Notes: generated by a model not told the origin, from the letters alone. Positions 7,303-32,881 are shown, counted from the stretch's first letter. The stretch is 64,000 bases of DNA from a candidate division FCPU426 bacterium (GCA_963738405.1 CAVTWJ010000018.1:76294-140293); one strand, 5' to 3'. Translations and numbers: made by a program.

Positions 7303-7354
7303 ACATCCATAACGTGGAGCTAGACCGAATGACTTGTAAATACTGGAAAACGAA

Positions 7355-10300: not shown

Positions 10301-10735
10301 TTCACCCATCTACTTTTGGAAAAGGCCTGGGATTGGAAACCAGCCCAAATCCCTCAGGCCGCGGAATATTACGGTGAAAAGATGGGTCTTTCACCTGAAC
10401 AAAGGGCGGAGGCGGCCCAGTGGGTCGAACAGACCCTTTTGAACCCTCTCATCCAAAGGGCTAAAAAATCCGAAAGGGCCTTCCGGGAATTGCCCCTTAC
10501 GGGAAAATATGAAGATGATTTTTTGAACGCGGTGCTCGACCTGGTCTTTTTGGAAGAAGGGAAATGGGTCATTGTGGATTACAAAACCGACCGGGACCCG
10601 AACAAGTTAGCCGAAAAATACGGGAAGCAATTAAAACATTACGCCAAGCTTTTGGAGCAGACCACCCAAATACCCGTCAAAGAAGCCCATCTCCTCTTTA
10701 TCCGGGAGAATCGGGCCCAAGCTGTCCCCCTTTAA
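7355..10735 (+). CDS. addA: AddA-type UvrD/Rep-family helicase-nuclease subunit
   Basis: It has a Walker A motif (AGAGTGKTT) and UvrD motifs (DEFQDTDP, TIHKAKGLEFP). A C-terminal RecB nuclease motif (IVDYKTDRD) is present. Confidence 0.85.
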   Translation: MISDQSIRTLVTHDHETLFAVDAGAGTGKTTQLVARLIALLLEKKVPLSRIAAITFTEKAAAELAQRLRFKLEEALPKYPEQKALILKALEDMERAPISTIHSFCAGLLKDYPVEAGVDPQFALMDEVQSGAFETQTWEHWLKKNLSQPVEPLFQFLRLGGTFEHVDELKQFLKRNRTLLKTPEKQALPSVEPFRKEWKEFLIWSKQAAKDCKDHKDKLYEALETFWAESQVQESSKPEEADFNLALLDIPKVKRTGNQKAWDKAVLDEIRLRFEGLAEDHTSAFAPFREAVLLNLIHWIGGYLTEWETQKAKSGFLDFDDLLLKTRDLLRDHLDSREEIKKRFDTLFVDEFQDTDPLQVEIVFFLCELQGRHEKDWKKASLEPGKLFLVGDPKQSIYRFRRADVAIYEATKERILANGGKVEVLTENFRTVGGLVEWVNERFLPQFEGSGITYRALNASREKGKTEGTLPILWGLKVPVPEGSEDTKAFYRQQEAEWVAAYLKDQILQGGWTVADPKTHERRAVRAGDIALLFRDLSNDNEEYWEEALRKRDLPYQIIGGKRFYNRPEIVALSTLLTCLSSPADEAACVAVLRGPLFGFSDEELFLHRADKGSFLFQEDAKEKMGKAFKCLRDWFDATRTLGVSETLSYLYEHTNLLAITAGQPHGEQRVANLMKVLDQARNLETTQHFTYRAFTQWLTTQQEEGTLEGEAPGPDSSEDRTGVFYDTGTDKTSASAGGLGADRITLMTIHKAKGLEFPIVFVSAWSSDPKDSGSLVDRKAMVGAFKVGRADLGLKTTNYDSVKEDEELQQLAENTRLLYVAATRARDCLLLPHFQMPLECKFQNENLFAGPLLKALEEKDSPVRSAPRPPAEAEDLTILASIKTPVRWAEPDSIKESLGDPAVWSVKLNVDPKDPALKAEKEKLVSENQKRTGLIERMMGKRTFQSVTSVLAVDEDKKGTEERIWEGPEPSSPWGGKELGSFTHLLLEKAWDWKPAQIPQAAEYYGEKMGLSPEQRAEAAQWVEQTLLNPLIQRAKKSERAFRELPLTGKYEDDFLNAVLDLVFLEEGKWVIVDYKTDRDPNKLAEKYGKQLKHYAKLLEQTTQIPVKEAHLLFIRENRAQAVPL

Positions 10736-12834
10736 CTTCCTAACCCCAACTGTCCCATTTCATATTTCAACCAGGCGTTTCCCGGGGAAAGCTTCTGGGC
10801 CTTTTGGAAAATCTTTTTAGCTTCCGCTTTTTCGCCTTCTACGGCCAAGAGCTTGCCGTATTTTTCACATAGAGTCGCATCCTGGTAGCTTTTCCCAAAA
10901 GATTGATGGAATGTTTCCGAGAAATTATTCCAATTCGCCCAGTTATCCCCCGGGAAAAAAGTATTTTCCCAGGAAAAATTAAAAGCCAGTTTTTCGAAAT
11001 AACAAGATTGAAGAAAGGGGTCGGAAGGGATGGAGGGATAGGCCTGTAACATTTTTTCAAGGACCGCTTGGTGGGGTTTGCCGGTGGGGATATCCACCGA
11101 TTCCAAATTGATCTCCTGCTGAAACGTGTAATAACTTTTCCATCGCTCCAGGAAGGTCCTATTTACCGGAGTCACCGGTAAAATCCCGAGCGCGTGCCGG
11201 CTCAAGACCCCGGGTTGAGGGGTCCCGCCGTTGATCCAACGGCAGTCAGGGAGAGCCTGGGATAAAAAGGGTAGATAGTGGGTTTCCGTAAAGACCGCCG
11301 CCCATTTCACGTCTTGTCCCAGACGCTGGTTCCAGGCCGCGTTGAAAGGGTAGGAACAATAGGCCAGCGAGTAATTTTGGGGGCTGGGAACCATATCCGA
11401 AAAGATCCAACCGGGTCCCTCCGCCCTCGCCAGGTTGTCCAGACTCCTATATCCGTCCCGGTACTCGCTGAAATCGACCTGGGCGGGATTCGGAAGAAAT
11501 AACCGATTGAGGTCCCAAACCGCCGAAGAACCCAGCACCACGACCAGCAGGAGGGGACGTAATCGGCCTGGCAGGGATAAGACCAAGGTTTCTATTCCCA
11601 AGGCCAAAAAGATCAGCAGAAGGGGTAACGCTAGGAGCATCCGGTGGGCTTCCAGGTCCCTGGATAAAAGGCCGGGCAGGAGGAAGATGGGAAAGGCAAC
11701 CAAAAGAATTTTGGATAGTAATTTAAAGCGCCCTCGGACCATTTCAACGAATCCCAAAAGGAAAGCCGATCCCAATAAGGCGTTTAATAGCCCCCCTTGG
11801 GGCGCCAATTCCATCCCCGAGGTCCCGCCCCAAAAAATCGCCTGAAGATAACTGAAAGCGACCCGCGCCTGACCCCATAGGGTAAAAGAAGGATCATTCC
11901 AAGCCGCTACTTCATGCAAATGCCCGCCATAGCCCGTCCCAACCGCCGTGAGAAGAAAAGGAACCATTCCCCCCAAAAGAAAAATGAAAAAAAGTCCTCC
12001 GGCGGCCCACTCCGTTTTTTTCCAAAACCATCCGCCTGCCACCCCCAACCCAAATAGAGTTAATACGGGCCAAGCCATAAAGGTATAGGGCCCCAAGCCC
12101 AAGGCCAGCCCCAAGGCGCAGGCCCAAATTTTTCGGGAGGCGGGATTGGGGGACAAAGTCAAACGGCCGAACAGGTAAAGTACCCCCCATTCCCAAAAGG
12201 GAAGCAAAACCCCCGGTTCATCGCACCGGGAAAGAAGAAGGTCCCATAGGTTGAAAGCCGTTATAACCGCGAGGATTCCCGCGAGGGGCCTTGAAAAATA
12301 AAGGCGCGCGGCGGCATAGCTTAAAACCACGGTCAAAAACGAGACCAGGGCCGAGGGAATTTGGATTCCCAGAAGATTCGAACCCGTCAACCTTGCCGCG
12401 AAATAGAAAAGGTAACTGAGCGTGCTGGGAACCTGGCTTAGGATCACAAAAGGTTTCCATTGCCAATGGTCCATCCACTGGATGACCGACAGGGCCAAGA
12501 GGGAAGAGTCCCCTCCCGGCCAGCGGCTTAAGGAACCGATACCCCAAAATCTCACGAGGGCCGCGAACGTCAGGAGGAAAAACCAAACCCAGACTGGGAA
12601 GGAAGCGTTTTCGCCGGAACCCTTGGATCGAAGAAATGAACGATCCCTGGCCGGGGAAGAGGGGGATAAATAAATCAAAAGCAAGGGCAAGGCTAATCCT
12701 AAAAGAAGAATCCGGATTTTGGAGGGTGGGGAAAGCGGAGTCTGGGATAAAAGCGAAAGGCTGGCGGCCAGTATGATAAAACAAAGCCAAGCGGGAAATG
12801 GAATCGACCGGGCTGTTATTTTGTTTTTTTTCAC
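10732..12834 (-). CDS. polytopic membrane glycosyltransferase-like protein (GT39/ArnT-like fold) with a C-terminal TPR-like tail
   Basis: About 12 hydrophobic segments are followed by a soluble C-terminal region. It is a paralog of 30845..32881. Its 3' end overlaps the addA stop, so the two genes converge. Confidence 0.55.
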   Translation of the reverse strand: MKKNKITARSIPFPAWLCFIILAASLSLLSQTPLSPPSKIRILLLGLALPLLLIYLSPSSPARDRSFLRSKGSGENASFPVWVWFFLLTFAALVRFWGIGSLSRWPGGDSSLLALSVIQWMDHWQWKPFVILSQVPSTLSYLFYFAARLTGSNLLGIQIPSALVSFLTVVLSYAAARLYFSRPLAGILAVITAFNLWDLLLSRCDEPGVLLPFWEWGVLYLFGRLTLSPNPASRKIWACALGLALGLGPYTFMAWPVLTLFGLGVAGGWFWKKTEWAAGGLFFIFLLGGMVPFLLTAVGTGYGGHLHEVAAWNDPSFTLWGQARVAFSYLQAIFWGGTSGMELAPQGGLLNALLGSAFLLGFVEMVRGRFKLLSKILLVAFPIFLLPGLLSRDLEAHRMLLALPLLLIFLALGIETLVLSLPGRLRPLLLVVVLGSSAVWDLNRLFLPNPAQVDFSEYRDGYRSLDNLARAEGPGWIFSDMVPSPQNYSLAYCSYPFNAAWNQRLGQDVKWAAVFTETHYLPFLSQALPDCRWINGGTPQPGVLSRHALGILPVTPVNRTFLERWKSYYTFQQEINLESVDIPTGKPHQAVLEKMLQAYPSIPSDPFLQSCYFEKLAFNFSWENTFFPGDNWANWNNFSETFHQSFGKSYQDATLCEKYGKLLAVEGEKAEAKKIFQKAQKLSPGNAWLKYEMGQLGLGS

Positions 12835-14319: not shown

Positions 14320-15657
14320 TTAAGGCTTTGGCTGGAGGAAGGATCGTACTTTCTCGGCGGCTCGGTGGCCTGAGAAGCAAGCGCCCTCAATGGTGGCGGG
14401 AAGGCCGGTGGCGGTGAAATCCCCGGCCAAAAACACGTTTTCAAAAACCGTTTCGCAGGTGGGGCGACACGAGACGTTCTCCGGGGTTAATTCGACTGTC
14501 GCGGCCATTTCCTTCACTACCTTGGAATGAAGTCTTTGGGCGCCTTGAGCCAGGGGAAAATGGCGCTGTAATTCTTCCACGGCCGTCACCAAAAGTTCCT
14601 TATCGTTTTTCACGGCCAAATCCATGTCCGCGCTGGCGACCAGGCTTAAATATTGTCCCGGGCCTGCGTAGCCCCAATTGGCGTTGCGGTTGAAGACCCA
14701 CTCGAAATGGGCGCCGGGGAGCCCGGCCCAATGGCCTTTCATCACAGGCCGGTCGAGCAAGAGATTTACGGAAAGAATCGGAGAGCGGCCCATTTGTTCT
14801 GCCGAAACCGGGGAGGGAAGATCGGACGTGGTCCAGAGGGCCTCCAGGGACCGGGGGGGGAGGGCCAAGACGAGGGCGTCGCCGGAGAAAATTTTGCCCG
14901 AGGCTGTTTCTACCTCGAAAGGTCCGCTGACCAGCCGGAGGTGGCGGGCCCCATCCCCCAAATGGATCATTCCCCCTTTTTCTTTCAAGTAGCTTTCAAC
15001 TTTGGGAAAGGCCAATTCGCTTAAGGGTTTGGCGGGCAGGGCGATAGCGCTCTGGGCGCGGGTTCCAAAAAAGGCCCTGTGCAGGGCCTCCCCGAATTCC
15101 AAAAGGGAGGATCGTTCGGGCTGCAGGTTCATGACGGCCCGGCAGAGGGGATCCCAGAATCTTTCACGGGAAATCGGCCCCTGACGGGTATGGACCAAAA
15201 ACTGGCCCACCGTTTGGAGGCCCTTAGCAATTGAAAAGGGGCGCCGGGCGAAGGGCTGGAGCGCCCGGGCCAGGGAAAGTTTTTCCCCCATGGGAAAGGC
15301 CTTGGTTTTCAGCAAGCCCACCGCCAGATGGAAGGGAGCCGGAAGATTGGCGCAGGAAAAGGAGGCGGGTACGCCGCCGGGGCTCATCCAGGTGATTTCC
15401 AGCGGGTTGATCCAATGGAAGGAGTTTTCGAATTCCAAGCGCTTGAAAAGCGCCCAGGTGTCTTTGTAACAGCCCAGGAACAGATGGGGACCGTTGTCGC
15501 AGGGAGCTGGAAAGGAATCTCCCGGCGCGATGGTGTAGACCCGGCCGCCGAGGGAAGAGCGGGTCTCCAAAAGTTCCACCCCGATTCCCTGCTCGGCCAA
15601 GGCGGTGGCGGCGGCCACCCCGGAGTAACCTCCTCCCACCACAATAACCCGGCTCAT
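14320..15657 (-). CDS. hpnE: FAD-dependent hydroxysqualene dehydroxylase HpnE (amine-oxidase/phytoene-desaturase family)
   Basis: The N-terminus is a dinucleotide-binding motif (VIVVGGGYSGVAAA ... LGGR). It is the last gene of the hpnC-hpnD-hpnE arrangement. Confidence 0.75.
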   Translation of the reverse strand: MSRVIVVGGGYSGVAAATALAEQGIGVELLETRSSLGGRVYTIAPGDSFPAPCDNGPHLFLGCYKDTWALFKRLEFENSFHWINPLEITWMSPGGVPASFSCANLPAPFHLAVGLLKTKAFPMGEKLSLARALQPFARRPFSIAKGLQTVGQFLVHTRQGPISRERFWDPLCRAVMNLQPERSSLLEFGEALHRAFFGTRAQSAIALPAKPLSELAFPKVESYLKEKGGMIHLGDGARHLRLVSGPFEVETASGKIFSGDALVLALPPRSLEALWTTSDLPSPVSAEQMGRSPILSVNLLLDRPVMKGHWAGLPGAHFEWVFNRNANWGYAGPGQYLSLVASADMDLAVKNDKELLVTAVEELQRHFPLAQGAQRLHSKVVKEMAATVELTPENVSCRPTCETVFENVFLAGDFTATGLPATIEGACFSGHRAAEKVRSFLQPKP

Positions 15658-15676
15658 GCGTTTTCTCCCCCGGGCC

Positions 15677-16513
15677 TCAAGCGAATACCTTCCCCAGCGA
15701 ACAGCGGCCCAGGGCGCCCACCACCGAAAGAACCTTATCCGCGCGGGAAAGGGATCTTTTTCCCTCGAGTATGGTGAAGGGTTGGTCGTAAAGCCGCTGG
15801 TAGAGCTTCACATAAACTGCCGCGATGGCCTCGGCGGTGGGAAGCTCAGCCCTTTGTTTAGTGGAAAGGGCGGCGCGGGATTTCAACAGGAAACCCAGGG
15901 CCCTGTCCAATTGGAACCGTACGAAGGCCGGCCAATGGGAATCGCCCTTTTGAATGTTTTCCGGAACCAGATGAAATTGACGAAAGTCGGAAAGGGGGAA
16001 ATAAAGCCTCTTGAATCCTAGGTCTTCCTTAAAATCGCGGGTCACGTTGACGAGCTGGAGAAAAACACCGAGGTTTTCGGCATAGACCCGGTGGGCTTCA
16101 TCCTTAAACCCGAATATTTCCATGCTAGCCAAACCAGGCCCTCCCGCCACTTGCAGGGCGTAAGAATGGAGTTCCTTGAAATTTTTAAATCGCAGGGGTT
16201 TTAAATCCCTGGCGATGCCGTTCAAGATGCGTTCCAGAGGCTCGGACGAAAGGTTGAAATCCCGGATCACTTCCTGAAATGAGGTAAACAGGGGATCTTT
16301 CGATTTTTGCAAAAAAGCTTTTTTGAGTTCCGCCCTGAACCGGGCGAGCCGGGATTTCTTTTGGGCGGAGGTGCCTTCCCCGTCGGCGATCTCGTCCGCG
16401 TTCCAGCAAAAACGGTAAAGGGACTCCATGGCTGCCCTTTTTTGGGGGGATAGAAGAAGGAGGGGGAAATAAAAACTCGATTTTTTTTCCAGGGAATCTT
16501 TTTGGGGATTCAC
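15677..16513 (-). CDS. hpnD: presqualene diphosphate synthase HpnD (squalene/phytoene synthase family)
   Basis: It has the SSFYFPLLLL block characteristic of HpnD and Asp-rich motifs of the trans-isoprenyl diphosphate synthase head-to-head family. Confidence 0.8.
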   Translation of the reverse strand: MNPQKDSLEKKSSFYFPLLLLSPQKRAAMESLYRFCWNADEIADGEGTSAQKKSRLARFRAELKKAFLQKSKDPLFTSFQEVIRDFNLSSEPLERILNGIARDLKPLRFKNFKELHSYALQVAGGPGLASMEIFGFKDEAHRVYAENLGVFLQLVNVTRDFKEDLGFKRLYFPLSDFRQFHLVPENIQKGDSHWPAFVRFQLDRALGFLLKSRAALSTKQRAELPTAEAIAAVYVKLYQRLYDQPFTILEGKRSLSRADKVLSVVGALGRCSLGKVFA

Positions 16514-16549
16514 GCGGCTTCCTTCAAGGGATATGTGATTGACTTTTTC

Positions 16550-17446
16550 CTAGGGCCGGACGAAACCGGCCAGGGATCGGAGGGCCAGGAGAGCCTTGTC
16601 CAAGGCGTTCCAGGAGGGCCTTTCCTGAAGCACATTGTAGTCCAGGGCCCGAATTTTCGAGAGGATTCCCTGGCCTCCCAGATAGGTGGCGCGAAGCTCC
16701 ATCAGGAACCTGCCCCGGACGGCCTCCAGTAAGGGGAAACCCCGCCGGAAATAGTTATCCGTGAATCGGACCGATTCCCTCACCAAGGCGCGAACCTGTG
16801 GGGAGTCCCTTAAAGCCAAGAGGTTGGAGGGTTTGACCCCGGCTTTTTTAAGTTCCGCCAGCGGGTAATAGATCCTTCCCCTTTTCAAGTCGATGGCCGA
16901 ATCCTGCCAGAAATTAATGAGCTGAAGACCCGAGCAAATAAAGTCCGACCAAAGGTGAAGTTTTTTTTCCCGGTAGCCGGAAATGTATAGCACCATCCTT
17001 CCCACGGGGTTGGCGCTGTGGCGGCAATAATAGAGAAGGGAATTCCAAGTGGAATAGCGGTGGATCTTAAGGTCCATGCGGTAGGCTCTCAATAGGTCCA
17101 AAGGCAGGGACGTTGGTATCTGAAAGGTTCGAAGGGTATGGGCGAAGGCTTTAAGAACCGCTGGAGAATCTTTCCCCTGGAGGGCTTTTCCCAAACCCCT
17201 TTCCCAGGCGTCGATTTCTTTCAACCTTCGGCCCTCGTATCTTTCCTCATCGGCGAAATCATCTGCGGTACGGGCAAAGGCATAGAGGGCGGCCACGTGG
17301 GGCCGGGATGCTTTGGGAAGAAGCAGGGAAGCGACCGGAAAATTCTCATAACGCGCCGAGGCTTGGTTTTCACAGGCCCGGTAGGCTTCTTGCAAATGTA
17401 CAGGAATGGGATAATTCACACCCCAAGGGTAAAGGGGTAGGGGCAA
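16550..17446 (-). CDS. hpnC: hydroxysqualene synthase HpnC (squalene/phytoene synthase family)
   Basis: It has the YENFPVAS motif and DDFADE, typical of HpnC. It is the first gene of the operon on the minus strand. Confidence 0.8.
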   Translation of the reverse strand: MPLPLYPWGVNYPIPVHLQEAYRACENQASARYENFPVASLLLPKASRPHVAALYAFARTADDFADEERYEGRRLKEIDAWERGLGKALQGKDSPAVLKAFAHTLRTFQIPTSLPLDLLRAYRMDLKIHRYSTWNSLLYYCRHSANPVGRMVLYISGYREKKLHLWSDFICSGLQLINFWQDSAIDLKRGRIYYPLAELKKAGVKPSNLLALRDSPQVRALVRESVRFTDNYFRRGFPLLEAVRGRFLMELRATYLGGQGILSKIRALDYNVLQERPSWNALDKALLALRSLAGFVRP

Positions 17447-17596: not shown

Positions 17597-18706
17597 ATGG
17601 AAAAAATGAACTTTTCTAAACCATTCGTATTAGGAGCCGTGACTTCCTTTTTGGGACTCGTTTTATTAAGCGAGATGCTTCTTCGCCTGACGGTTCCAAC
17701 GGGTTTCTGGTACCGCCATTTCGACTTATCCGCCGATTTCACAAGTTTGGCCGAGGTTCAAGACCGGTTGCGTTACGGGGCCCAGGGAAACCCTGTCGTT
17801 TTTGTAATGGGTGACAGCGTATTGGGGGCCAGCGCCCTCATGGAACACCGCCTCCCAGGAGCCCGAACCCTGACTTTGGGGCGTTCCCTGGGCCGTGAGC
17901 TGGAACCGGATGGCATTCATGCCCTGACCCTTGGCGCCGATGGAATTCTTTTGCCAGATCTTTTGGCCCTTACCAGCGAGTTTCTTCCCCAATATGAAAA
18001 GATCTCAAATGGGCTTAAACCGCAAAAAATACTTTTGCTGCTGAATTTTCGTATGTTTTCTCAGGAATTCGCGTCCGGTCCCAAAGCCCTTTCCAGGGAA
18101 TTTTTAAAGGAAAATTTGCCTCTTTCCCTGGCGGCGGCGCTTGGGACCGATCCTAAGAAGACGGATGAAAACAGGCTCAGCGATAAACTTTTTGAATTCC
18201 TTTGCCGGCACTTCTTTCTTTTCCGCGAATCCCAAATGGCGAAGACCCTTTGGTATTACCCAAACCAGAAAGATTTTTTCCAGCGCCAGTTGGAGAAAGT
18301 CATGGGGCCGTCGAAAGAAGAGGAGGATTTGGTGGAAGCGGGCTTGAAACTCAAGATCGCGACCTATTACCAGGCCTACCACTGGCCGGAAGACGGGATG
18401 CCCTTTCTAAGTCTGGCGCTTTTATTACAAAGGTTGAAGGAATCCAATATCCCGGTCGATGTGATTTTAACTCCCCAAAACCCGGCCTTTTTAGGGGAAT
18501 ACTTGGACCGACCCAGTTTTGAATTCAACCGGAGGAATCTTCAGCTTTTCATGAAGGCCCATGGATTCAAGGGATTGGAGTACAGGGACTGGTCCAACCG
18601 ATATGAATCCCGCCTATTTCTGGATCATTGTCATTTGACCCCTGAGGGAAATCAGGCCTATGCCAGGGATTTGGCAGATCTGCTTGCGCGAAAGGAAAAA
18701 AGCTAA
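17597..18706 (+). CDS. membrane-anchored SGNH/GDSL-family hydrolase or acyltransferase
   Basis: It has an N-terminal transmembrane helix, a block-I motif (FVMGDSV) and a C-terminal block-V DxxH (DHCHLT). It is adjacent to an MBOAT gene. Confidence 0.55.
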   Translation: MEKMNFSKPFVLGAVTSFLGLVLLSEMLLRLTVPTGFWYRHFDLSADFTSLAEVQDRLRYGAQGNPVVFVMGDSVLGASALMEHRLPGARTLTLGRSLGRELEPDGIHALTLGADGILLPDLLALTSEFLPQYEKISNGLKPQKILLLLNFRMFSQEFASGPKALSREFLKENLPLSLAAALGTDPKKTDENRLSDKLFEFLCRHFFLFRESQMAKTLWYYPNQKDFFQRQLEKVMGPSKEEEDLVEAGLKLKIATYYQAYHWPEDGMPFLSLALLLQRLKESNIPVDVILTPQNPAFLGEYLDRPSFEFNRRNLQLFMKAHGFKGLEYRDWSNRYESRLFLDHCHLTPEGNQAYARDLADLLARKEKS

Positions 18707-18842
18707 TGAACCATTCATTTCTGAAGGGCCTGGGTGTGGGAATGGTTTTGTTTTTGCTTTTCCTGGCCATCCTTCTTTTTTCCGGGGATCTTTCTGCTTC
18801 CAAGTTTATTTATGTTGATTTTTAAAAACCGGGGAGCGCTTT

Positions 18843-20045
18843 TTGATATTTAATACGAGCTGGTTTCTTCTTTTTTTTCTCCTTTTTTATCCATTGCTTT
18901 GGCTGATGCCGACTCCCCGGTTCCGACTGGTTTATACGCTTGTCTGCAGCGCCATTTTTCATTACCACTTCGCCGGACCTGCCGGAATAAAACCCATCAT
19001 TGCCATGGCGGTTTTAACTTTTTTTTTCGCCCTCGGGATTGCGGCCAAGCGGCAGAAACCGGGAATGGGAAAGGGCCTTTATTTAGGAGCGGTTCTTATA
19101 CCGGTTTTAGGGCTGTTATTTTTCAAGTATCAATACCTGCTGGTTACTTCCCTGGGAAACATGATGGGAGGAGACATGGGGAGTTGGTTTCAAACCCACG
19201 CCTATCAGCCGGCCCTGCCCCTGGCCATTTCTTTTTTCACCTTTGAATTTGTCCATTACCTGACGGACGTCTACCACGGCAGCGAACCGGTGAGAAATCC
19301 CGTTAAGTTCGGTATTTTCTGCATTTTTTTCCCTTCCATCGTTTCGGGCCCCATCAAACGCTACCAGCCTTTTCTGGCCCAGCTTCAGGAAGGTTTGAAA
19401 AGGCCCGAGGTGGAAAGGGCCTTGCTGGGATTGTTCCAGGTATTATTAGGCTTCTTCAAAAAACTGGTCATTGCGGATAACGCGACGATGGTCATCCATC
19501 TTCTTGAAAAAAGAACTGATCTGACCTTTGGACCCACCTGCCTTCTTTTGGCGCTTCTTTCTATCCGTATACTTTTCGACTTTTCCGGCTATAGCGACAT
19601 CGCCATCGGCTTAGGCAAATTGATAGGCTTGGATCTGCCAATCAACTTTAATTTTCCTTACATTTCAAGAAATATCACGGAATTCTGGAGACGCTGGCAC
19701 ATATCCCTTAGCAGCTGGATTCGAGATTACATTTACATTTCCCTTGGTGGCAACCGTCACGGCTTGTTTAGAAAATTTTTGAACCTGATGGCGACCATGT
19801 TCGTGTGCGGATTGTGGCATGGAGCCAGCTGGCATTTCGGAATCTGGGGCCTCTATCATGGTTTGGGCTTGGTGCTCCACGGCATTTTTGAGAAAACCCG
19901 GGCCGGGCGCTGGTGGATTAACTTTCCTTTCAGTCGTTGGCTGGATATCGCGTTCACAAACCTCTTTGTCGCCTATGGGTGGCTTTTGTTTTTCTACCCG
20001 ATGGATCAGGTGGAAAAATTCACGAGATGTCTTTTGAGTTTTTGA
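18843..20045 (+). CDS. MBOAT-family membrane-bound O-acyltransferase (AlgI/DltB/PatA-like)
   Basis: It is polytopic and carries the conserved MBOAT histidine region (WRRWHISLSSWIRDYIY ... GLWHGASW). Confidence 0.85.
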   Translation: MIFNTSWFLLFFLLFYPLLWLMPTPRFRLVYTLVCSAIFHYHFAGPAGIKPIIAMAVLTFFFALGIAAKRQKPGMGKGLYLGAVLIPVLGLLFFKYQYLLVTSLGNMMGGDMGSWFQTHAYQPALPLAISFFTFEFVHYLTDVYHGSEPVRNPVKFGIFCIFFPSIVSGPIKRYQPFLAQLQEGLKRPEVERALLGLFQVLLGFFKKLVIADNATMVIHLLEKRTDLTFGPTCLLLALLSIRILFDFSGYSDIAIGLGKLIGLDLPINFNFPYISRNITEFWRRWHISLSSWIRDYIYISLGGNRHGLFRKFLNLMATMFVCGLWHGASWHFGIWGLYHGLGLVLHGIFEKTRAGRWWINFPFSRWLDIAFTNLFVAYGWLLFFYPMDQVEKFTRCLLSF

Positions 20046-20105
20046 TGGGGTGGGCGTATCTTGATTAAGGGTTTTGTTCGTTTGAATGCATCATTGGGAG
20101 GAAAC

Positions 20106-20588
20106 ATGAAAATTGGGTTTATCTTTTTATTTCTAACGGTTGCCGCGGTGGTTTTGGCGCAGGACGCCACTCCAACACCTTTTGCGACAATTCCGACGGG
20201 ACAATGGAAAACTTCATCCGTTCCCTGGGATGACTGGTTCCCCAAAAATGCGCTCGTGACGGATAAAGGGGATTACGTTCATTTCTTTTGGAATGCCGAG
20301 GACGCTAAGGAAAATTTCGCCGGCAAGGACCGCAAAGATCGGCTCGCTGATTCCGCGCTTGAATTGGCTGCGAAACTCCAACCCGCCGGTGCCAAGGCCG
20401 ATCTCGCCAAGGTGGATATTGTTTTTGTATTGGAAAGGGATTCCTACGGCCAGCCTAAATGGGACAGTCTTCAAAGGGTGGCCCATTTTGAGTTTTCGCG
20501 GGCGAAAGCCTTAAAGGTGTTGAATGGAAAGGCCGCCTGGACCGCTGCCGCTATGAAAAAAGTTTTTACTGTTGCCCAGTACTTTTGA
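20106..20588 (+). CDS. secreted hypothetical protein (signal peptide MKIGFIFLFLTVAAVVLAQ)
   Basis: The ORF is directly downstream of the MBOAT gene. The track ORF begins at 20061, and the ATG at 20106 gives a canonical signal peptide. Confidence 0.45.
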   Translation: MKIGFIFLFLTVAAVVLAQDATPTPFATIPTGQWKTSSVPWDDWFPKNALVTDKGDYVHFFWNAEDAKENFAGKDRKDRLADSALELAAKLQPAGAKADLAKVDIVFVLERDSYGQPKWDSLQRVAHFEFSRAKALKVLNGKAAWTAAAMKKVFTVAQYF

Positions 20589-20633
20589 TCCCTCTTTCAT
20601 GATTCTCAGAGGCTAGGGTTGTAAGGCTGGTGT

Positions 20634-20663
20634 TGGTTGAAAAGGCCATTTTTTCGCTATAAA
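20634..20663 (+). promoter_or_regulatory. putative sigma70-like promoter for the tRNA-Val gene (TTGGTT/TTGAAA ... TATAAA)
   Basis: The -35/-10-like hexamers lie about 50 nt upstream of the tRNA. This call rests on sequence alone. Confidence 0.25.
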
Positions 20664-20714
20664 CTACCAGCCCTCTCTCAGATCATGCCATTAGGTAAAT
20701 GGTCGATGGACCTT

Positions 20715-20791
20715 GGACATTTAGCTCAGCTGGTTAGAGCGTCGCGTTCACATCGCGAAGGTCACTGGTTCGAGTCCAGTAATGTCCACCA
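20715..20791 (+). tRNA. tRNA-Val: tRNA-Val (anticodon CAC)
   Basis: I folded the cloverleaf by hand. The acceptor stem GGACATT/AATGTCC is perfect, with a D-arm GCTC...GAGC, an anticodon stem TCGCG/CGCGA around loop TTCACAT, and a T-arm ACTGG-TTCGAGT-CCAGT. A CCA 3' end is encoded. Confidence 0.9.
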
Positions 20792-20796
20792 TAAAT

Positions 20797-20827
20797 GCCC
20801 CTCCCTTTTGGGCGGGGCTTTTTTATT
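20797..20827 (+). terminator. rho-independent terminator after tRNA-Val
   Basis: The stem pairs gcccctccc with gggcggggc, with one mismatch, and is followed by a TTTTTTATTT run. Confidence 0.55.
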
Positions 20828-20935
20828 TGGGTTGTTTTATGGATTGAATGGACCTTAAGCATAATCACTGGATCTGTTCCTAAAAGGTTGGGTTCGGGAT
20901 TTAAGCATGCGGAAGGAAATTGATGGAGGCGTGAT

Positions 20936-23023
20936 TTGGGGAATTTTCTTAAAAATTCTTCCTGGCCGGGAAGGTTTTACAAAAGAAGCTTGAAGGGGAA
21001 GGCGGTTAAATGGCGCCCGATCCTTTTTTTCCTCATGGGACTTGGGGTATCCCTTCCCCAGAGTTCTTGGGCCGTTCGCCCCATGTACCATTCCATCGCC
21101 CTGGTGGCTGGCAGCGGTTCCCAGGGGTTCCTCGACGGATCTTTCACCTCGGCGCTTTTTAATAATCCTCTTGGATTGGCCATCAATAAAGATGGAACCC
21201 TGCTTTTTGTGGCCGATACGGGAAACAATCGCATCCGCGTTGTCCATCTTGACCAATCAAATAGGGTTTCAACCCTCACGGGCCAGGATTCCCCGGGGAG
21301 CCAGAACGGTCCTTTGACAGTAGCCAATTTCAACCAACCCAGGGGTGTACTTTGCATCCCGGGGGAACGGCTCGTCGTCAATGACTTTGGCAACGGCTTA
21401 CTGCGTCTTATAGACCTGAAAACCGGTTGGGTCTCCAATCTTGCTGGAGGTCCCACAGCCAATTTATCGGAAGGTCCCGCGTCCCAGGTATCTATGGGTG
21501 GAATCCGAGACATGGCCTATTTGCCGGAAGCCGACTCGCTTTTCTTAACCCAACCGGGGGAAAAATCGCTCAAAAGGCTGGATTTGAAAACCGGGGAAGT
21601 GACTTTTGTCCTGCGGGAAAACGCGGATATTCCGGCACCCATTTCGATTTGTGGGGTCGGAGGAAAACTTTACATTGCCGATTCGGATCGAATCTTCAGC
21701 ATGAATTGGAAGGCCGGCTTGGACCCTAAAATCGCCTTGATCGCCACCCTCTCCTCAAATATACAGGCCCTGGCGGAAAACGGGGACCGGCTTTACGCGC
21801 TCAATTTAAACAGCGTGACACCGTTGGTGAGAGTTCTTCCCCAGCTGGAACCGGTGACTTTTACCACAACTTCCGGCGATGTGATGCCTGATCCGGGAAA
21901 AAACTTGCCCACCTTCTCGACCCAACAACCCCCTTGTTTCGTCTCTGATCCCACGGACGAAAGCAAATTTTTCATCATGAATCCGTCTCTCAACATCATC
22001 ACATCCTTCAGGGATCTGTTTGGTCGCGAACCTGACTGGTACGCATGGAGGAATTCGAATGGTTTGAATGAAGACGAGTATCCAGCGCACAAGCCTCCCC
22101 GGACTTTCCGCATTCTCTTCTGTGGTGATTCCCGGTCCTGCGGGGTCGTCAATTACCCTTTCAAGACGACCTGGAATATCCAATCCTGGAAAAACGTGAC
22201 CGGGGACGTAAATGGGGCCCCTCCGCGCCAGGTCAGCATCGCCAAAAGGATGGAAGTCGAGCTGAATACACTCGCGGCCCTGGACGATTTACCTTTTAAC
22301 TTTGAAGTCTTAAGTTTATTCCACAATGCCAACGATCCCCCCCTTCTCGTATGGCCGGCTTACGAAATCCCCGATGCGGTTAAAAAGAATGACATCGATT
22401 TAGTCATGATTTTCTGGCCTCCCCCCGAAATTATGCCCGATCTCCCCCCTGTCATTTCTTATTACCAACGCCCTATTAATTCAGAGGGGATTCCCGAGAA
22501 ATGTATCGATCCCGAGTATCTCTTGAAGCCTCTCCAGGAAAGAATTCCCGAGGGTGCGCCAAGGCAATTCTATGAAATGTGCAAAGCCCGTCATTTCGTC
22601 AGGGAGAGCGAGAGTTCTTATTTTTTCGATTTGAAAGTATACAAGGATCCGGCTTTTCGCGATCTCCTCATACAGCTGTACGGCAAACCCTTCGAAGTCC
22701 TAAAGAAAAAACTTTCCATTTTGAAAACCTCCGGGGGCCAACCCGTCCGGTTGCTTTTTTGTTCCGCCCATACGAGCGTATTTGACAAACCGGTGGAAGA
22801 CCCGGTCATGTGGAAGGAAATAACCAAAAATCTGGATATCTCCTTCCTGAATTTAAACGATGAAGTGTCGGCTTTAACACCTTCCTTTTTTCCCTTGGCT
22901 GAAGTCGGAGGGAATGACCATTTGGATCCGGACGGCCACCTTTTCTTCAGCTGGCTTCTAGTCCATGACCTCATTCGGGATGGATATTTGCCATGGGGCA
23001 AGACGCCTCCATCCAACCCCTGA
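20936..23023 (+). CDS. secreted NHL-repeat (beta-propeller) protein with a C-terminal SGNH-hydrolase-like domain
   Basis: It has a signal peptide. NHL-type repeats are present (LGLAINKDGTLLFVADTGNNRIRVV and others). The C-terminal region has GDS (ILFCGDSRS) and DxxH (GGNDHLDPDGH) blocks. Confidence 0.5.
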   Translation: MGNFLKNSSWPGRFYKRSLKGKAVKWRPILFFLMGLGVSLPQSSWAVRPMYHSIALVAGSGSQGFLDGSFTSALFNNPLGLAINKDGTLLFVADTGNNRIRVVHLDQSNRVSTLTGQDSPGSQNGPLTVANFNQPRGVLCIPGERLVVNDFGNGLLRLIDLKTGWVSNLAGGPTANLSEGPASQVSMGGIRDMAYLPEADSLFLTQPGEKSLKRLDLKTGEVTFVLRENADIPAPISICGVGGKLYIADSDRIFSMNWKAGLDPKIALIATLSSNIQALAENGDRLYALNLNSVTPLVRVLPQLEPVTFTTTSGDVMPDPGKNLPTFSTQQPPCFVSDPTDESKFFIMNPSLNIITSFRDLFGREPDWYAWRNSNGLNEDEYPAHKPPRTFRILFCGDSRSCGVVNYPFKTTWNIQSWKNVTGDVNGAPPRQVSIAKRMEVELNTLAALDDLPFNFEVLSLFHNANDPPLLVWPAYEIPDAVKKNDIDLVMIFWPPPEIMPDLPPVISYYQRPINSEGIPEKCIDPEYLLKPLQERIPEGAPRQFYEMCKARHFVRESESSYFFDLKVYKDPAFRDLLIQLYGKPFEVLKKKLSILKTSGGQPVRLLFCSAHTSVFDKPVEDPVMWKEITKNLDISFLNLNDEVSALTPSFFPLAEVGGNDHLDPDGHLFFSWLLVHDLIRDGYLPWGKTPPSNP

Positions 23024-30844: not shown

Positions 30845-32881
30845 CTAAACAAAACTTTTCTTTGACTCTTCATCTCGTTTTTGAAATTGAAGGCATAATC
30901 CCAGGTTGTAGTAAAGTTGGGCGGCCGGTATTCCCAAATGGATTGCGTTCTTAAATGCTTGAGTTGCTTGCACGAAATGACCGTCCAAAACCTTGAAAAA
31001 CGCGAGTTTTTCCCAGTAGACCGCGGTTAAAAAGCGGTCGGCGGGAAAGGAATCGGGTAGGGTTGGCCGGGACTCCAAAAAACTAGCCCATCGTTCATTC
31101 TGCCTTTTATTCATAACCTCAAACTGGGCATCACCGTAAACCCGGTCGGCGCTTTTCCAAGCTTCAAGCATAGGCGGGGGAATTTGGGCTGTTGGAATTA
31201 AAAATACCGCAAAAGGTTTGGGGTCCTCTGGACGACGTTTGTCTGTATCAAGGATTTTCCACCTCACGCCGGGAAATCTTTTCTCGAAATAAGGCGCGTA
31301 ATGAGCGTTGGTGATCAATGCAGTCCAAGAAGGGTTTGGATTCCTTAGGGATGGGTTGTGGATCGCGTCAAAGGGGTAACATGCGACATCTAATGTTCTA
31401 TTTACATAGTCCGTGTTGAACTCGGTGAAAAGGTTGAGGGAACCTTCCGGTTTGCTGAACGCCTTTAAAATTCGATAAGCGTCGTAATATTGAAAATTTC
31501 GCCATTGCTGGTTCAAATTTCCGCATAGCCGGATATCGTCATATAAATTGAAGAAATGATAAAAATTGAGGAGAGTGGGTGTCAGCAATAGACCGAGGAA
31601 AGCCCATTTCCTTAAAGGAAAAGATATATTTGTAAAAAGGTCACGGAGACCGAATGAAGCAAAAAGCATAAAAAAAATGAACACAGGCGTGGCTCTCTGC
31701 AATTCCAATCCGTTGGAAAGGATGCCGGGAAAAAGGGAAAGAAAGGTTCCGGAAACCAAAAGAAAAAAAACCTTTCGGTCTAAACACCGTGCCGAGTATA
31801 AAATTCCATTTAAAACAAGGGTTCCGGTCACTGCGTCAAAATACCCGCCCCAAATGGGGCCAAGGGGATAACTGTCCTTTCCGTTCAAAAAAAATCCACG
31901 AAGATACGAGAAAAAAGAAGAAAAAAATGATGAACTAATAACATTTTCTTGAAGGTGCTGGGTCGCTCCGGGTGCAAAACGAGCGAGGACTAAGGGCAAG
32001 GAAAGCGCCAACGAAAGAACAATAAATAGAAAACCTTGGGATCTTTTAATTCGATCGGGATAAGAAAAGATGACCATCGCAAAGAATAACCAGGCGACGA
32101 TCCAATTGGTGTAACTATAAAATCCAAAGCCGCACCAAATTCCCAAAACCACTGTCCAAAACCAAGAATTGGAATTTCTTTGGGTTTTCATGAGGATTCC
32201 CAAAAGAATGAAGGCGATGAGTTGAAAAAGCGGGATTAAGTCATTGGGAGTGCACTGACGGGAGAAGCCGATCTCCCAAAAGGATAGGGTAACAAACCAG
32301 CAAAAGACAAAAGCGAGAAAAGGCTCAAAAACTCGTTTTGCGGCGGCATAGGCCGAACCGCCGATGGCGATTGATATAAGGACGGTAAAAAACCTTTGCG
32401 TCAGCAGTGAAACTCCGACCCATCGATAGAACAAAGCTAACAACCATAGCAGCAGGGGTTCCATCTGACCTTGGGCCCAAAGAAGAGTAGTGCTCCACTT
32501 TTTCATGAGGCCGATCGCCAAAAAAGAAAAAATACCTTCGTCAGTTAGGGGCCAAAAAGGGATGCTGGACAATCGGTAAAACCTTGAGAAAACAAAAAAA
32601 ACAAAGAAGAGAATCCAAAAGAAAGGGAATAAATGGATTGTCTTTTCAAAAGTTGTTTCCGGCACATCTTTCAATTTTCTCGTACGGATTCCAAAAAAAA
32701 TGCCCAATAGGAAAGGAAGAAAAAGACCCATCCATCCAATCCATAGAATGGCTTGTGGAGGAAGTGAAAAATAAGATAGAAGAACGTTGGAAGCTAGAAA
32801 CAAGCAGAAGTAGGGCCAGGGATTAAAGTGTGGATGTTTTTTAAGGAGAACTAAAATATTCTGAAAATCTTTCATAGGCAT
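30845..32881 (-). CDS. polytopic membrane glycosyltransferase-like protein with a C-terminal TPR-like tail (paralog of 10732..12834)
   Basis: Its architecture matches the other paralog, and the C-terminal soluble domains are alignable (YFEKLAF / YWEKLAF). Confidence 0.55.
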   Translation of the reverse strand: MPMKDFQNILVLLKKHPHFNPWPYFCLFLASNVLLSYFSLPPQAILWIGWMGLFLPFLLGIFFGIRTRKLKDVPETTFEKTIHLFPFFWILFFVFFVFSRFYRLSSIPFWPLTDEGIFSFLAIGLMKKWSTTLLWAQGQMEPLLLWLLALFYRWVGVSLLTQRFFTVLISIAIGGSAYAAAKRVFEPFLAFVFCWFVTLSFWEIGFSRQCTPNDLIPLFQLIAFILLGILMKTQRNSNSWFWTVVLGIWCGFGFYSYTNWIVAWLFFAMVIFSYPDRIKRSQGFLFIVLSLALSLPLVLARFAPGATQHLQENVISSSFFSSFFSYLRGFFLNGKDSYPLGPIWGGYFDAVTGTLVLNGILYSARCLDRKVFFLLVSGTFLSLFPGILSNGLELQRATPVFIFFMLFASFGLRDLFTNISFPLRKWAFLGLLLTPTLLNFYHFFNLYDDIRLCGNLNQQWRNFQYYDAYRILKAFSKPEGSLNLFTEFNTDYVNRTLDVACYPFDAIHNPSLRNPNPSWTALITNAHYAPYFEKRFPGVRWKILDTDKRRPEDPKPFAVFLIPTAQIPPPMLEAWKSADRVYGDAQFEVMNKRQNERWASFLESRPTLPDSFPADRFLTAVYWEKLAFFKVLDGHFVQATQAFKNAIHLGIPAAQLYYNLGLCLQFQKRDEESKKSFV

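What the first reader, a model, noticed from the sequence alone, without database searches (positions are those of the whole stretch)
17597..23023. Candidate glycan O-acylation module: anchored SGNH, MBOAT, small secreted protein, and NHL-propeller/SGNH fusion, with a tRNA-Val inside
The architecture parallels PatA/PatB/Ape (peptidoglycan O-acetylation) and AlgI/AlgJ/AlgF/AlgX (alginate acetylation). It has an MBOAT membrane acyl-translocase, a membrane-anchored SGNH protein, a small periplasmic protein, and a second secreted SGNH enzyme. Here the second SGNH domain is fused to an NHL-repeat beta-propeller rather than a carbohydrate-binding module. That fusion is a combination I do not recognise. 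The tRNA-Val, with its own promoter and terminator, sits in the middle of the cluster.
Basis: partly seen in the sequence, partly recalled or inferred. Interest (0 to 1): 0.55.

Follow-up and report, generated by a model that had tools for sequence, protein, structure and literature searches.

The report
Dlt-like membrane acyl-transfer gene cluster

Summary
The four ORFs and tRNA-Val(CAC) are all there.

- **MBOAT:** it is a short, DltB-type enzyme (Pfam 4.5e-25; best solved relative DltB, 1.7e-33).
- **ORF1:** it has no sequence-family hit. Its AlphaFold model (pLDDT 89) matches DltD crystal structures best, and S74, G116, N150 and D343xxH346 are invariant.
- **ORF4 C-terminus:** it models as an SGNH/GDSL fold. 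It has a conserved Ser/Cys399–His662 pair but no DxxH aspartate.
- **Missed gene:** a 39-aa microprotein (18706-18825) ends in FIYVDF, the FxYxxF acyl-shuttle motif of DltX. It is under strong purifying selection.

ORF1, the microprotein, MBOAT and ORF3 recur together in nine independent loci, one of them from Thermoanaerobaculia. Eight of the nine have an NHL–SGNH gene alongside. No DltA or DltC lies nearby.

In this window ORF4 is a separate transcription unit behind the tRNA's conserved promoter and terminator. It belongs to a mostly dispersed paralogue clade.

Most likely this is a transmembrane acyl relay, MBOAT His286 → microprotein Tyr36 → ORF1 Ser74. ORF3 and the NHL–SGNH proteins would be periplasmic accessory or terminal enzymes. 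Donor, acyl group and acceptor are unknown.

Verdict: a new variant of the known MBOAT–SGNH kind, of moderate interest.

The parts
17597..18706 (+). ORF1 (369 aa): N-terminally membrane-anchored, DltD-like SGNH-fold protein. Putative catalytic residues are Ser74 (GDS), Gly116, Asn150 and Asp343-x-x-His346.
   Evidence: There is no Pfam, NCBIfam or PDB sequence hit. The AlphaFold2 model has pLDDT 89.2 and pTM 0.88, with an N-terminal helix at residues 8-35. The top 12 Foldseek PDB hits are all DltD structures (6o93, 7dxm, 3bma, 6pfx; E 1e-6 to 5e-5), followed by other SGNH enzymes including PatB. D73, S74, G116, N150, D343, H344, C345 and H346 are invariant in 38 homologues. Relatives carry a weak precomputed hit to the new Pfam family PF27429.
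18706..18825 (+). Microprotein (39 aa, MNHSFLKGLGVGMVLFLLFLAILLFSGDLSASKFIYVDF). It has one transmembrane helix and a C-terminal FIYVDF, which is the FxYxxF 'acyl-shuttle' motif, with the putative acyl-accepting residue Tyr36. It is DltX-like.
   Evidence: Read directly from the sequence; its ATG overlaps the ORF1 stop as TAATG. It is present between ORF1 and the MBOAT in all seven loci examined, with ...GDLS(A/S)S(K/G)FIYVDF* conserved as far as a Thermoanaerobaculia MAG. In the last 23 codons there are 9-13 synonymous against 1 non-synonymous difference versus four relatives. Other pipelines called it as a 39-40 aa gene in L106, L109, L110, L112 and L114. The motif and its role are as described for DltX and PatA in PMC12148441. 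The Pfam DltX model is not hit.
18843..20045 (+). MBOAT (400 aa): short, DltB-type membrane-bound O-acyltransferase. The catalytic His286 lies in RWHISLSSW. There is no C-terminal FxYxxF; the protein ends ...TRCLLSF.
   Evidence: PF03062 at 4.5e-25. TIGR04091 DltB matches end to end (4-383 against 5-376 of 380) at 188.8 bits, below the 375-bit equivalog cut-off. The best solved relatives are DltB 8jem and 6bug at 1.7e-33, with the WHxSLS histidine aligned. His positions and the C-terminus were checked.
20106..20588 (+). ORF3 (160 aa from ATG 20106; the mechanical ORF starts at TTG 20061): small secreted protein of an uncharacterised family. It is a core member of the module.
   Evidence: It has a signal-peptide-like N-terminus and conserved blocks DYVHFFWNA and ERDSYGQPKWDSLQ(Q/R)VAHFEF. 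No Pfam or PDB match is found, even with a profile. It has 115 homologues, none named. It is found next to the MBOAT module in the window, L099, L106, L109, L110, L111, L113 and L114.
20637..20665 (+). Promoter-like site of tRNA-Val (TTGAAA-17-TAAACT).
   Evidence: It is a 9/12 consensus match, and the count in the region is no more than chance. However, the block GTTGGTTGAAAAGGC...TATAAACTACC is invariant between the window and L106/L107 inside an otherwise diverged spacer.
20715..20791 (+). tRNA-Val (anticodon CAC).
   Evidence: Found by ARAGORN and by Rfam RF00005 at 71.8 bits. It sits in the same position in L106/L107. In L099, L109 and L110 the same tRNA lies after the module, just upstream of the SRAP gene.
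20797..20828 (+). Intrinsic terminator of tRNA-Val: GC-rich hairpin (20797-20818) followed by TTTTTTATTT.
   Evidence: The 47-nt stretch 20789-20835 that contains it folds at -19.4 kcal/mol, z = -2.2. In L106/L107 a hairpin with a different stem sequence sits at the same place, followed by the identical T-run.
20936..23023 (+). ORF4 (695 aa): secreted two-domain protein. It has a signal-like N-terminus, an NHL-repeat region (about aa 55-371, nt 21098-22048) and a divergent SGNH-fold domain (aa 372-695, nt 22049-23020) with Ser399 (GDS) and His662.
   Evidence: PF01436 NHL matches aa 75-102 at 1.3e-7. Internal repeats were shown by hhalign. The C-terminal domain model has pLDDT 82 and pTM 0.85. 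Foldseek PDB top hits are SGNH/GDSL esterases (Axe2 3w7v at 3e-5, EstL5, AlAXEase), all with probability 1.00. G397 and H662 are invariant; S399 is Ser in 36 of 38 and Cys in 2 of 38; the Asp at -3 of the His is absent. An exhaustive HMMER search of the C-terminal domain finds only 264 representatives, nearly all 620-700 aa with the domain at the C-terminus.

Best explanation
The locus encodes an MBOAT–SGNH envelope-acylation pathway with the split, three-part architecture so far described only for Dlt.

Inferred mechanism:

1. The DltB-type MBOAT takes an acyl group from a cytoplasmic thioester donor. The donor is unknown, either acyl-CoA or a carrier protein.
2. Using His286, the MBOAT transfers the acyl group to Tyr36 in the C-terminal FIYVDF of the 39-aa microprotein on the outer face of the inner membrane.
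3. The microprotein tail hands the acyl group to Ser74 of the membrane-anchored DltD-like SGNH protein ORF1.
4. From ORF1 the acyl group goes onto an extracytoplasmic acceptor. This happens either directly or via the soluble NHL-propeller–SGNH proteins (Ser399/His662). Their propeller would bind the acceptor, analogous to AlgX's carbohydrate-binding module. Alternatively these proteins edit or remove the modification, as Ape1 does.
5. ORF3 is a non-catalytic-looking periplasmic accessory protein, occupying the place of AlgF.

What is shown: the gene content, the folds, the conserved catalytic residues and motif, the purifying selection, and conserved linkage reaching into a second phylum.

What is inferred: every chemical step, the topology, and the roles of ORF3 and ORF4. 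Donor, acyl group and acceptor are unknown.
For: - **MBOAT type:** MBOAT with a DltB-like full-length match and the aligned catalytic His.
- **Microprotein:** it ends in FxYxxF at the extreme C-terminus, is conserved in seven loci and is under strong purifying selection. The role of that motif as the acyl-Tyr shuttle in DltX and PatA is taken from PMC12148441.
- **ORF1:** the model matches DltD best, and the S-G-N-DxxH set is invariant.
- **ORF4 C-terminus:** SGNH fold with a conserved nucleophile and His.
- **Linkage:** ORF1–microprotein–MBOAT–ORF3 is found in nine independent loci, including a Thermoanaerobaculia genome. Eight of the nine have at least one NHL–SGNH gene adjacent.
- **Family sizes:** the ORF1 and ORF3 families are similar in size (123 and 115) and share at least 19 contig lengths in the hit tables.
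- **Translational coupling:** overlapping or abutting stop and start codons, TAATG between ORF1 and the microprotein and TAAATG between the microprotein and the MBOAT in L109 and L110.
Against: - No biochemical evidence exists. The donor and acceptor are unknown.
- No carrier protein or adenylating enzyme lies in the window or within 10 kb in six loci, so a DltB-like enzyme would need a different donor.
- The microprotein does not hit the Pfam DltX model, and ORF1 does not hit the DltD models. The similarity rests on the motif and the fold only, with TM-scores of only 0.4-0.47 to DltD.
- ORF4 in this window is separated from the operon by a tRNA with its own promoter and terminator. It belongs to clade A, most of whose members lie far from any MBOAT.
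- ORF4 lacks the SGNH Asp, and no block II Gly or block III Asn is evident.
- No complex model could be made.
Confidence: 0.65

Rival explanations
1. The core module (ORF1–microprotein–MBOAT–ORF3) is an acylation pathway as above, but ORF4 is not part of it in this genome. On this view ORF4 is an independently expressed secreted GDSL-type esterase or lipase with a propeller binding domain, one of many dispersed paralogues that happens to sit next to the module.
For: ORF4 lies behind a tRNA gene with a conserved promoter and terminator. In the tree it falls in clade A with copies that have no MBOAT within 10 kb: L001, L003, L084, L088, L092-L094, L100 and L108. The module-embedded paralogues of relatives (clades B1 and B2) are only 32-38% identical to it and are missing from the window. 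Its closest solved folds are esterases.
Against: Clade-A copies also flank the module in L106/L107, L110, L112 and L113. Some NHL–SGNH gene is adjacent in 8 of 9 module loci, including one in another phylum.
Confidence: 0.3
2. It is a genuine Dlt pathway: D-alanylation of a teichoic-acid-like or other anionic polymer. DltA and DltC would be encoded elsewhere in the genome.
For: The only NCBIfam hit of the MBOAT is DltB, matched end to end, and the best solved relative is DltB. The best structural match of ORF1 is DltD. A separate microprotein carrying FxYxxF is otherwise described only for Dlt (PMC12148441).
Against: The DltB score is 188.8 against a cut-off of 375. No DltA- or DltC-like gene is in the 64-kb window or in the flanks of six related loci, whereas dlt genes are normally one operon (established knowledge). 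The window encodes a TolC-like outer-membrane protein, so the organism is probably diderm and not expected to make teichoic acids (inference). The Dlt Pfam models for DltX and DltD are not hit. ORF3 and NHL–SGNH proteins are not part of any Dlt operon.
Confidence: 0.1
3. It is a peptidoglycan O-acetylation and de-O-acetylation cluster of the PatA/PatB/Ape1 type. ORF1 would be the PatB-like transferase and ORF4 the Ape1-like esterase, carrying a substrate-binding domain.
For: PatB is among the structural hits of ORF1 (7trr, 7tjb; E about 5e-4). ORF4 is a binding domain plus SGNH, like Ape1, and its nearest folds are esterases. The organism is probably diderm.
Against: PatA carries the FxYxxF motif fused to its own C-terminus on two extra helices (PMC12148441), whereas this MBOAT does not. 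DltD structures outrank PatB for ORF1. The many NHL–SGNH paralogues per genome, including three in tandem in L096, are not expected for a single housekeeping esterase. No peptidoglycan genes are nearby.
Confidence: 0.1

Closest known systems
Dlt pathway of Gram-positive bacteria (DltB MBOAT, DltX microprotein, DltD SGNH, with DltA/DltC as donor system)
   Same: It shares the three-part membrane machinery. The MBOAT is short and lacks its own shuttle motif. A separate single-helix microprotein ends in FxYxxF. An N-terminally anchored SGNH protein has DltD as its best structural match and the canonical Ser...DxxH order.
   Different: No DltA or DltC is in the neighbourhood. The MBOAT scores below the DltB equivalog cut-off. 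The DltX and DltD sequence models are not hit. The host is probably diderm and belongs to uncultured lineages near Firestonebacteria/FCPU426, with one locus in Thermoanaerobaculia. It has extra partners, ORF3 and the NHL–SGNH proteins. PMC12148441 states that non-Dlt MBOAT pathways lack a DltX-like microprotein, so this would be an exception.
Alginate O-acetylation AlgI/AlgJ/AlgF/AlgX (and cellulose WssH/I/G/F)
   Same: It has the same four-role layout: MBOAT, membrane-anchored SGNH-like protein, small periplasmic protein without obvious catalytic residues, and a soluble two-domain SGNH-like protein carrying a binding module. In the Alg model the acyl group is relayed from the anchored protein to the soluble one (PMC4148444).
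   Different: AlgI-type MBOATs carry the FxYxxF motif on their own C-terminus (PMC12148441). AlgJ and AlgX are circularly permuted (H-S-G-Y order, DxH), whereas ORF1 and ORF4 are canonical. ORF3 shows no similarity to AlgF or to any Pfam family. The binding module is an NHL propeller, not a CBM. No polysaccharide synthase genes are nearby.
Peptidoglycan O-acetylation PatA/PatB with the esterase Ape1
   Same: It pairs an MBOAT with an SGNH transferase, and has a second SGNH enzyme with an added binding domain in the same cluster. The acyl-Tyr shuttle chemistry was demonstrated for PatA (PMC12148441).
   Different: In PatA the shuttle motif is fused to the enzyme, whereas here it is on a separate microprotein. 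ORF1 resembles DltD more than PatB. The NHL–SGNH family is multi-copy.
SGNH/GDSL hydrolase superfamily (e.g. acetylxylan esterase Axe2, 3w7v)
   Same: The ORF4 C-terminal domain has the same predicted fold, and the block I GDS serine and block V histidine are conserved.
   Different: No Pfam SGNH or GDSL model is hit. The DxxH aspartate is absent and blocks II and III are not recognisable. There is a roughly 100-residue helical insertion. It forms a small closed family of 264 representatives, almost always fused to the NHL region.

Membership tests
MBOAT superfamily (PF03062) | Match to the family model above the curated cut-off, and the invariant catalytic histidine | tested here: met
   The match is 89.1 bits against a cut-off of 27. 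His286 in RWHISLSSW aligns with the WHMSLS histidine of DltB.
Dlt pathway | DltB equivalog (TIGR04091) score above cut-off | tested here: not met
   The score is 188.8 bits against a cut-off of 375, although the match covers the full length.
Dlt pathway | Separate membrane microprotein with a C-terminal FxYxxF (DltX) | tested here: inconclusive
   The motif FIYVDF is present at the extreme C-terminus after one transmembrane helix, and is conserved in seven loci. However, the Pfam DltX model is not hit at E <= 10.
Dlt pathway | DltD: membrane-anchored SGNH protein with a Ser/His/Asp triad | tested here: inconclusive
   The best Foldseek matches are DltD structures at E about 1e-6, but with TM-scores of only 0.4-0.47 and 12-17% identity. 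S74, D343 and H346 are invariant. No DltD Pfam hit is found.
Dlt pathway | DltA (D-Ala ligase) and DltC (carrier protein) encoded with DltB/DltD | tested here: not met
   No AMP-binding or PP-binding gene appears in the gene tables of six related loci or among the 33 window ORFs scanned, which were the larger ORFs only, so a carrier protein of about 80 aa would not have been scanned. tblastn with DltA, DltC and AcpP sequences recalled from memory found nothing. The rest of the genome could not be searched.
Dlt pathway | D-alanylation of teichoic acid | not testable with these tools
   This needs biochemistry. A TolC-like gene in the window suggests a diderm host.
Bacterial MBOAT–SGNH envelope acyltransferase systems (general) | An MBOAT encoded with an SGNH partner, and an FxYxxF acyl-shuttle motif either on the MBOAT C-terminus or on a partner | tested here: met
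   The definition is taken from PMC12148441.
AlgIJFX-type acetylation machinery | Circularly permuted SGNH-like AlgJ/AlgX (DxH before the Ser), an AlgF homologue, and the shuttle motif fused to AlgI | tested here: not met
   ORF1 and ORF4 have the Ser first and the His last. ORF3 hits no Pfam family, AlgF included. The MBOAT lacks the motif. The permutation is described in PMC4148444.
SGNH/GDSL hydrolase superfamily (ORF4 C-terminal domain) | Alpha/beta/alpha fold with a block I Ser and a block V His | tested here: met
   Foldseek probability is 1.00 to many SGNH esterases, with E from 3e-5. Position 399 is Ser in 36 of 38 and Cys in 2 of 38; His662 is present in 38 of 38.
SGNH/GDSL hydrolase superfamily (ORF4 C-terminal domain) | Block V Asp (DxxH), block II Gly and block III Asn | tested here: not met
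   The position at -3 of His662 is Gly or a gap, and the -1 position is variable. After the DIDLV strand the sequence is xPP rather than GxND.
NHL-repeat beta-propeller (ORF4 N-terminal region) | Five or six NHL blades forming a propeller | tested here: inconclusive
   One repeat is above the Pfam threshold. Profile comparison links blades 1-2-3-4, and more weakly 5 and 6. NHL proteins align over residues about 40-355.

The most novel reading that the evidence does not exclude
A Dlt-style split acyl relay (short MBOAT, FxYxxF microprotein, DltD-like SGNH) has been adopted by diderm candidate phyla without DltA or DltC. There it feeds an expanded family of NHL-propeller–SGNH transferases, each propeller selecting a different acceptor.

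The acceptors could be surface proteins or their glycans rather than a classical polysaccharide. Relatives encode Thr/Pro-rich lipoproteins, an outer-membrane-barrel-like protein and PMT-type glycosyltransferases inside or beside the same locus.

That would be an MBOAT-dependent extracytoplasmic acylation of proteins or glycoproteins in bacteria.
Probability: 0.1. Interest if true: 0.8.

Novelty: new variant of a known kind. Interest (0 to 1): 0.5.

Why it matters
MBOAT–SGNH pathways decorate bacterial envelopes with D-alanyl groups on teichoic acids and acetyl groups on peptidoglycan, alginate and cellulose. These modifications affect antibiotic, lysozyme and immune resistance.

The current view (PMC12148441) is that only Dlt uses a separate shuttle microprotein, and that it does so together with a carrier-protein donor. 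This locus breaks that pairing. It has the Dlt-type split machinery without DltA or DltC, in a probably diderm uncultured lineage, with two unstudied partner families: ORF3, and an NHL-propeller–SGNH fusion with a Ser–His pair but no Asp.

It offers a compact five-gene system for three questions:

- What decides donor choice in DltB-like enzymes?
- Can one relay serve several terminal transferases?
- What do NHL propellers recognise in the envelope?

It also shows that 39-codon genes essential to such pathways are easily missed in annotation.

Tried and rejected
**Sequence searches that found nothing**
- Sequence-family searches for ORF1, ORF3 and the ORF4 C-terminus gave nothing usable: Pfam, NCBIfam, and PDB by phmmer and hmmsearch.
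- The microprotein does not hit Pfam DltX.
- Profile-profile comparison of the ORF1 family with the ORF4 C-terminal family gave only a 5% probability match. It did align the His blocks.
- Scanning the six putative blades one by one found NHL only in blade 1.

**Tool and library failures**
- The genome scan was dominated by generic NHL proteins, with only two true family members.
The source organism is therefore inferred only from best hits, which are Firestonebacteria and FCPU426.
- Model coordinates are not exposed, so catalytic geometry was not measured.

**Literature**
- The Schultz et al. 2023 paper (PMC10664464) is not held.
- Searches for MBOAT+SGNH+NHL, LB356 and Firestonebacteria gave nothing relevant.

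**Ideas considered and dropped**
- A functional link to the divergently transcribed hopanoid (hpnCDE-like) genes was considered. That adjacency holds only among close relatives, not in L111, L113 or L114; L112 is too short to tell.
- tRNA-targeted insertion of a mobile element carrying ORF4 was considered. No integrase or repeats were seen, and the arrangement is shared with L106/L107.

Full report
**1. What is there**

The region 17597-23023 carries four co-directional ORFs on the + strand plus one tRNA, exactly as described. ORF1 is 17597-18706 (369 aa). An MBOAT is at 18843-20045 (400 aa). ORF3 is listed as 20061-20588, with ATG 20106 the likely start, giving 160 aa. tRNA-Val(CAC) is at 20715-20791 and ORF4 at 20936-23023 (695 aa).

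It is a 39-codon ORF at 18706-18825 whose ATG overlaps the ORF1 stop (TAATG). It encodes MNHSFLKGLGVGMVLFLLFLAILLFSGDLSASKFIYVDF.

**2. Identity of the parts**

- **MBOAT.** It is unambiguous (PF03062, 4.5e-25). It matches the DltB model TIGR04091 from end to end, but at 188.8 bits against a cut-off of 375. Its best solved relatives are DltB structures at 1.7e-33, with the catalytic histidine aligned (His286, RWHISLSSW). At 400 aa it is the short DltB type, and it ends ...TRCLLSF with no acyl-shuttle motif.
- **ORF1.** It has no sequence-family or PDB sequence hit. A 38-sequence alignment shows invariant GDS (Ser74), Gly116, Asn150 and Asp343-His-Cys-His346, which is the canonical S-G-N-H order. 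Its AlphaFold2 model is confident (pLDDT 89, pTM 0.88) and has an N-terminal membrane helix. The top twelve Foldseek PDB hits are all DltD crystal structures (E 1e-6 to 5e-5). Generic SGNH enzymes, including PatB, follow. TM-scores are modest at 0.4-0.47.
- **ORF4.** It has one clear NHL repeat. Profile comparison links at least four, probably six, repeats. NHL proteins from many phyla align over residues about 40-355. Its C-terminal 324 residues hit nothing by sequence. They model with pLDDT 82 as an α/β fold whose best PDB matches are SGNH/GDSL esterases: Axe2 at 3e-5, with probability 1.00 for about twenty entries. Across 38 family members Gly397 and His662 are invariant. Position 399 is Ser in 36 and Cys in 2. 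The aspartate expected three residues before the histidine is absent, and blocks II and III are not recognisable.
- **ORF3.** It is a signal-peptide protein of a 115-member family with no Pfam, PDB or name.

**3. The microprotein**

The peptide has one hydrophobic helix followed by a tail ending in F-I-Y-V-D-F-COOH.

- It is present between ORF1 and the MBOAT in all seven loci examined. The tail ...GDLS(A/S)S(K/G)FIYVDF* is kept even in a Thermoanaerobaculia MAG that is only 34% identical in ORF1.
- In the last 23 codons, four relatives differ from the window at 9-13 synonymous sites but at only one non-synonymous site.
- Gene callers annotated it as a 39-40 aa protein in five loci.
- FxYxxF at the extreme C-terminus is the "acyl shuttle" motif. 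According to Anderson et al. 2025 (PMC12148441), DltB loads D-Ala onto the Tyr of this motif in the microprotein DltX, which passes it to the Ser of DltD. PatA auto-acetylates the same Tyr (FIYSSF, FIYANF) at its own C-terminus.
- The same paper states that non-Dlt MBOAT pathways lack a DltX-like microprotein and a carrier protein.
- The peptide does not hit the Pfam DltX model, so the link is by motif and context, not by demonstrable homology.

**4. Conservation of the cluster**

*Starting from ORF1.* The order ORF1–microprotein–MBOAT recurs in nine independent loci: the window, L099, L106/L107, L109, L110, L111, L112, L113 and L114. ORF3 is present wherever the contig is long enough. At least one NHL–SGNH gene is adjacent in eight of the nine. 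L109 keeps only a 50-residue remnant. L111 is from a Thermoanaerobaculia (Acidobacteriota) MAG. The ORF1 and ORF3 hit lists share at least 19 contig lengths.

*Starting from ORF4.* The picture is different. Many paralogues have no MBOAT within 10 kb, and one locus has three in tandem (L096). A neighbour-joining tree separates two groups:

- Module-embedded clades: B1 lies after the MBOAT and B2 after ORF3, and both are 32-38% identical to ORF4.
- Clade A contains the window's ORF4, the dispersed copies, and copies flanking the module in L110, L112 and L113.

An exhaustive HMMER search with the C-terminal domain finds only 264 representatives among 1.84 billion proteins. Nearly all are 620-700 aa with the domain at the C-terminus. 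The fusion is therefore the rule for this small family.

**5. The tRNA**

tRNA-Val(CAC) sits between ORF3 and ORF4 in the window and in its closest relative, L106/L107, which is 68% identical in ORF4. In L099, L109 and L110 it lies after the whole module, just upstream of the SRAP gene.

The promoter-like block upstream is invariant between the window and L106/L107 while the surrounding spacer has diverged. The terminator hairpin (in the window, -19.4 kcal/mol for the 47-nt stretch folded around it) is kept with a different stem sequence, followed by the same T-run. ORF4 is therefore a separate transcription unit here. The window lineage has a reduced module: it lacks B1, B2 and several further genes.

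**6. Donor and acceptor**

No AMP-binding or carrier-protein gene is found among the 33 window ORFs scanned or in the flanks of six related loci. Only the larger window ORFs were scanned, so a small carrier-protein gene cannot be excluded by that scan alone. A TolC-like outer-membrane gene suggests a diderm host. No polysaccharide synthase or peptidoglycan genes are adjacent.

In relatives, the space between the module and the tRNA holds lipoproteins with long Thr/Pro-rich linkers and a protein that looks like an outer-membrane barrel. PMT_2-type GT-C glycosyltransferases lie beside the module (window 10732-12834 and 30845-32881; L109) or within it (L114). These are hints about a surface glycoconjugate or protein acceptor, nothing more. 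None of the Thr-rich genes is in the window.

**7. Mechanism proposed**

- Shown: the gene set, the folds, the conserved residues and motif, the selection, and the linkage.
- Inferred relay: cytoplasmic thioester donor → MBOAT His286 → microprotein Tyr36 → ORF1 Ser74 → acceptor. The last step may be direct or go through the NHL–SGNH Ser399. ORF3 would be an accessory protein. I put 0.65 on this.
- Main rival (0.3): ORF4 is an unrelated secreted esterase in this genome.
- Other rivals: a true Dlt pathway with DltA and DltC elsewhere (0.1), and a Pat/Ape-type peptidoglycan system (0.1). Both are less likely.

**8. Comparison with known systems**

The system works most like Dlt, with a split MBOAT, microprotein and DltD-like protein. 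It fails the membership tests for Dlt: the DltB cut-off is not reached, DltA and DltC are not found, and the DltX and DltD models are not hit.

Its four-role layout resembles AlgI/J/F/X. However, AlgJ and AlgX are circularly permuted (PMC4148444), AlgI carries its own motif, and ORF3 is not AlgF.

It is best filed as a new variant of the MBOAT–SGNH envelope-acylation kind, with two unstudied partner families. No paper in the library combines MBOAT, SGNH and NHL.

**9. Verdict**

Interest is moderate (0.5).

Noticed in passing
window 52000-64000: G+C content rises from about 0.50 over most of the window to 0.58-0.66 from about 52 kb onward. This could be a genomic island, a change of gene content or an assembly join.
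   Followed up: no
window 14320-17446 (- strand): Three genes are transcribed divergently from ORF1: two squalene/phytoene-synthase-family genes and an amine-oxidase-family gene, resembling hpnC/hpnD/hpnE for squalene and hopanoid synthesis. The same adjacency is seen in L106, L107, L109 and L110 but not in L111, L113 or L114 (L112 is too short to tell). It looks like shared ancestry rather than a functional link.
   Followed up: partly
window 10732-12834 (-) and 30845-32881 (-); L109 137-6551; L114 8327-10729: Large membrane proteins of about 680-800 aa with weak to moderate PMT_2 (GT-C glycosyltransferase) matches, some with TPR tails, recur near the module. There are two in the window. L109 has three adjacent ~700-aa genes next to hpnE, one of which carries the weak PMT_2 hit. 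L114 has one inside the module, followed by an NPCBM-domain protein and ORF3.
   Followed up: partly
L099 7580-11271; L109 13331-19880; L110 17116-20155: Between the module and tRNA-Val, relatives carry conserved genes with no Pfam match. These are lipoproteins with long Thr/Pro-rich (TPT-repeat) linkers, a protein of about 270 aa, and a protein of about 520 aa that ends like an outer-membrane barrel (...FDVAF). None is present in the window. They are possible acceptors or partners of the pathway.
   Followed up: partly
L109 12432-12584: A roughly 50-residue remnant of the C-terminus of a clade-B1 NHL–SGNH gene sits directly after the MBOAT. This is evidence of gene loss within the module.
   Followed up: yes
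L096 6780-12915: Three NHL–SGNH paralogues lie in tandem with no MBOAT within the locus. In L110 a 359-aa protein next to the module (6545-7621, - strand) consists of NHL-like repeats only.
   Followed up: no
window 52105-53133 (+): A TolC-like outer-membrane efflux protein (PF02321) is encoded here. This implies an outer membrane in the source organism.
   Followed up: no
window 3486-10735 (+): Two large adjacent genes look like an AddB/AddA-type helicase-nuclease pair. One has ADDB_N plus PD-(D/E)XK domains; the other has UvrD helicase plus PD-(D/E)XK domains.
   Followed up: no
ORF1 family (P0122, P0130 and others): Precomputed annotations give many ORF1 homologues a weak hit to the very recent Pfam family PF27429 (LB_356). 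This family is not in the local Pfam copy, and no paper was found for it.
   Followed up: partly
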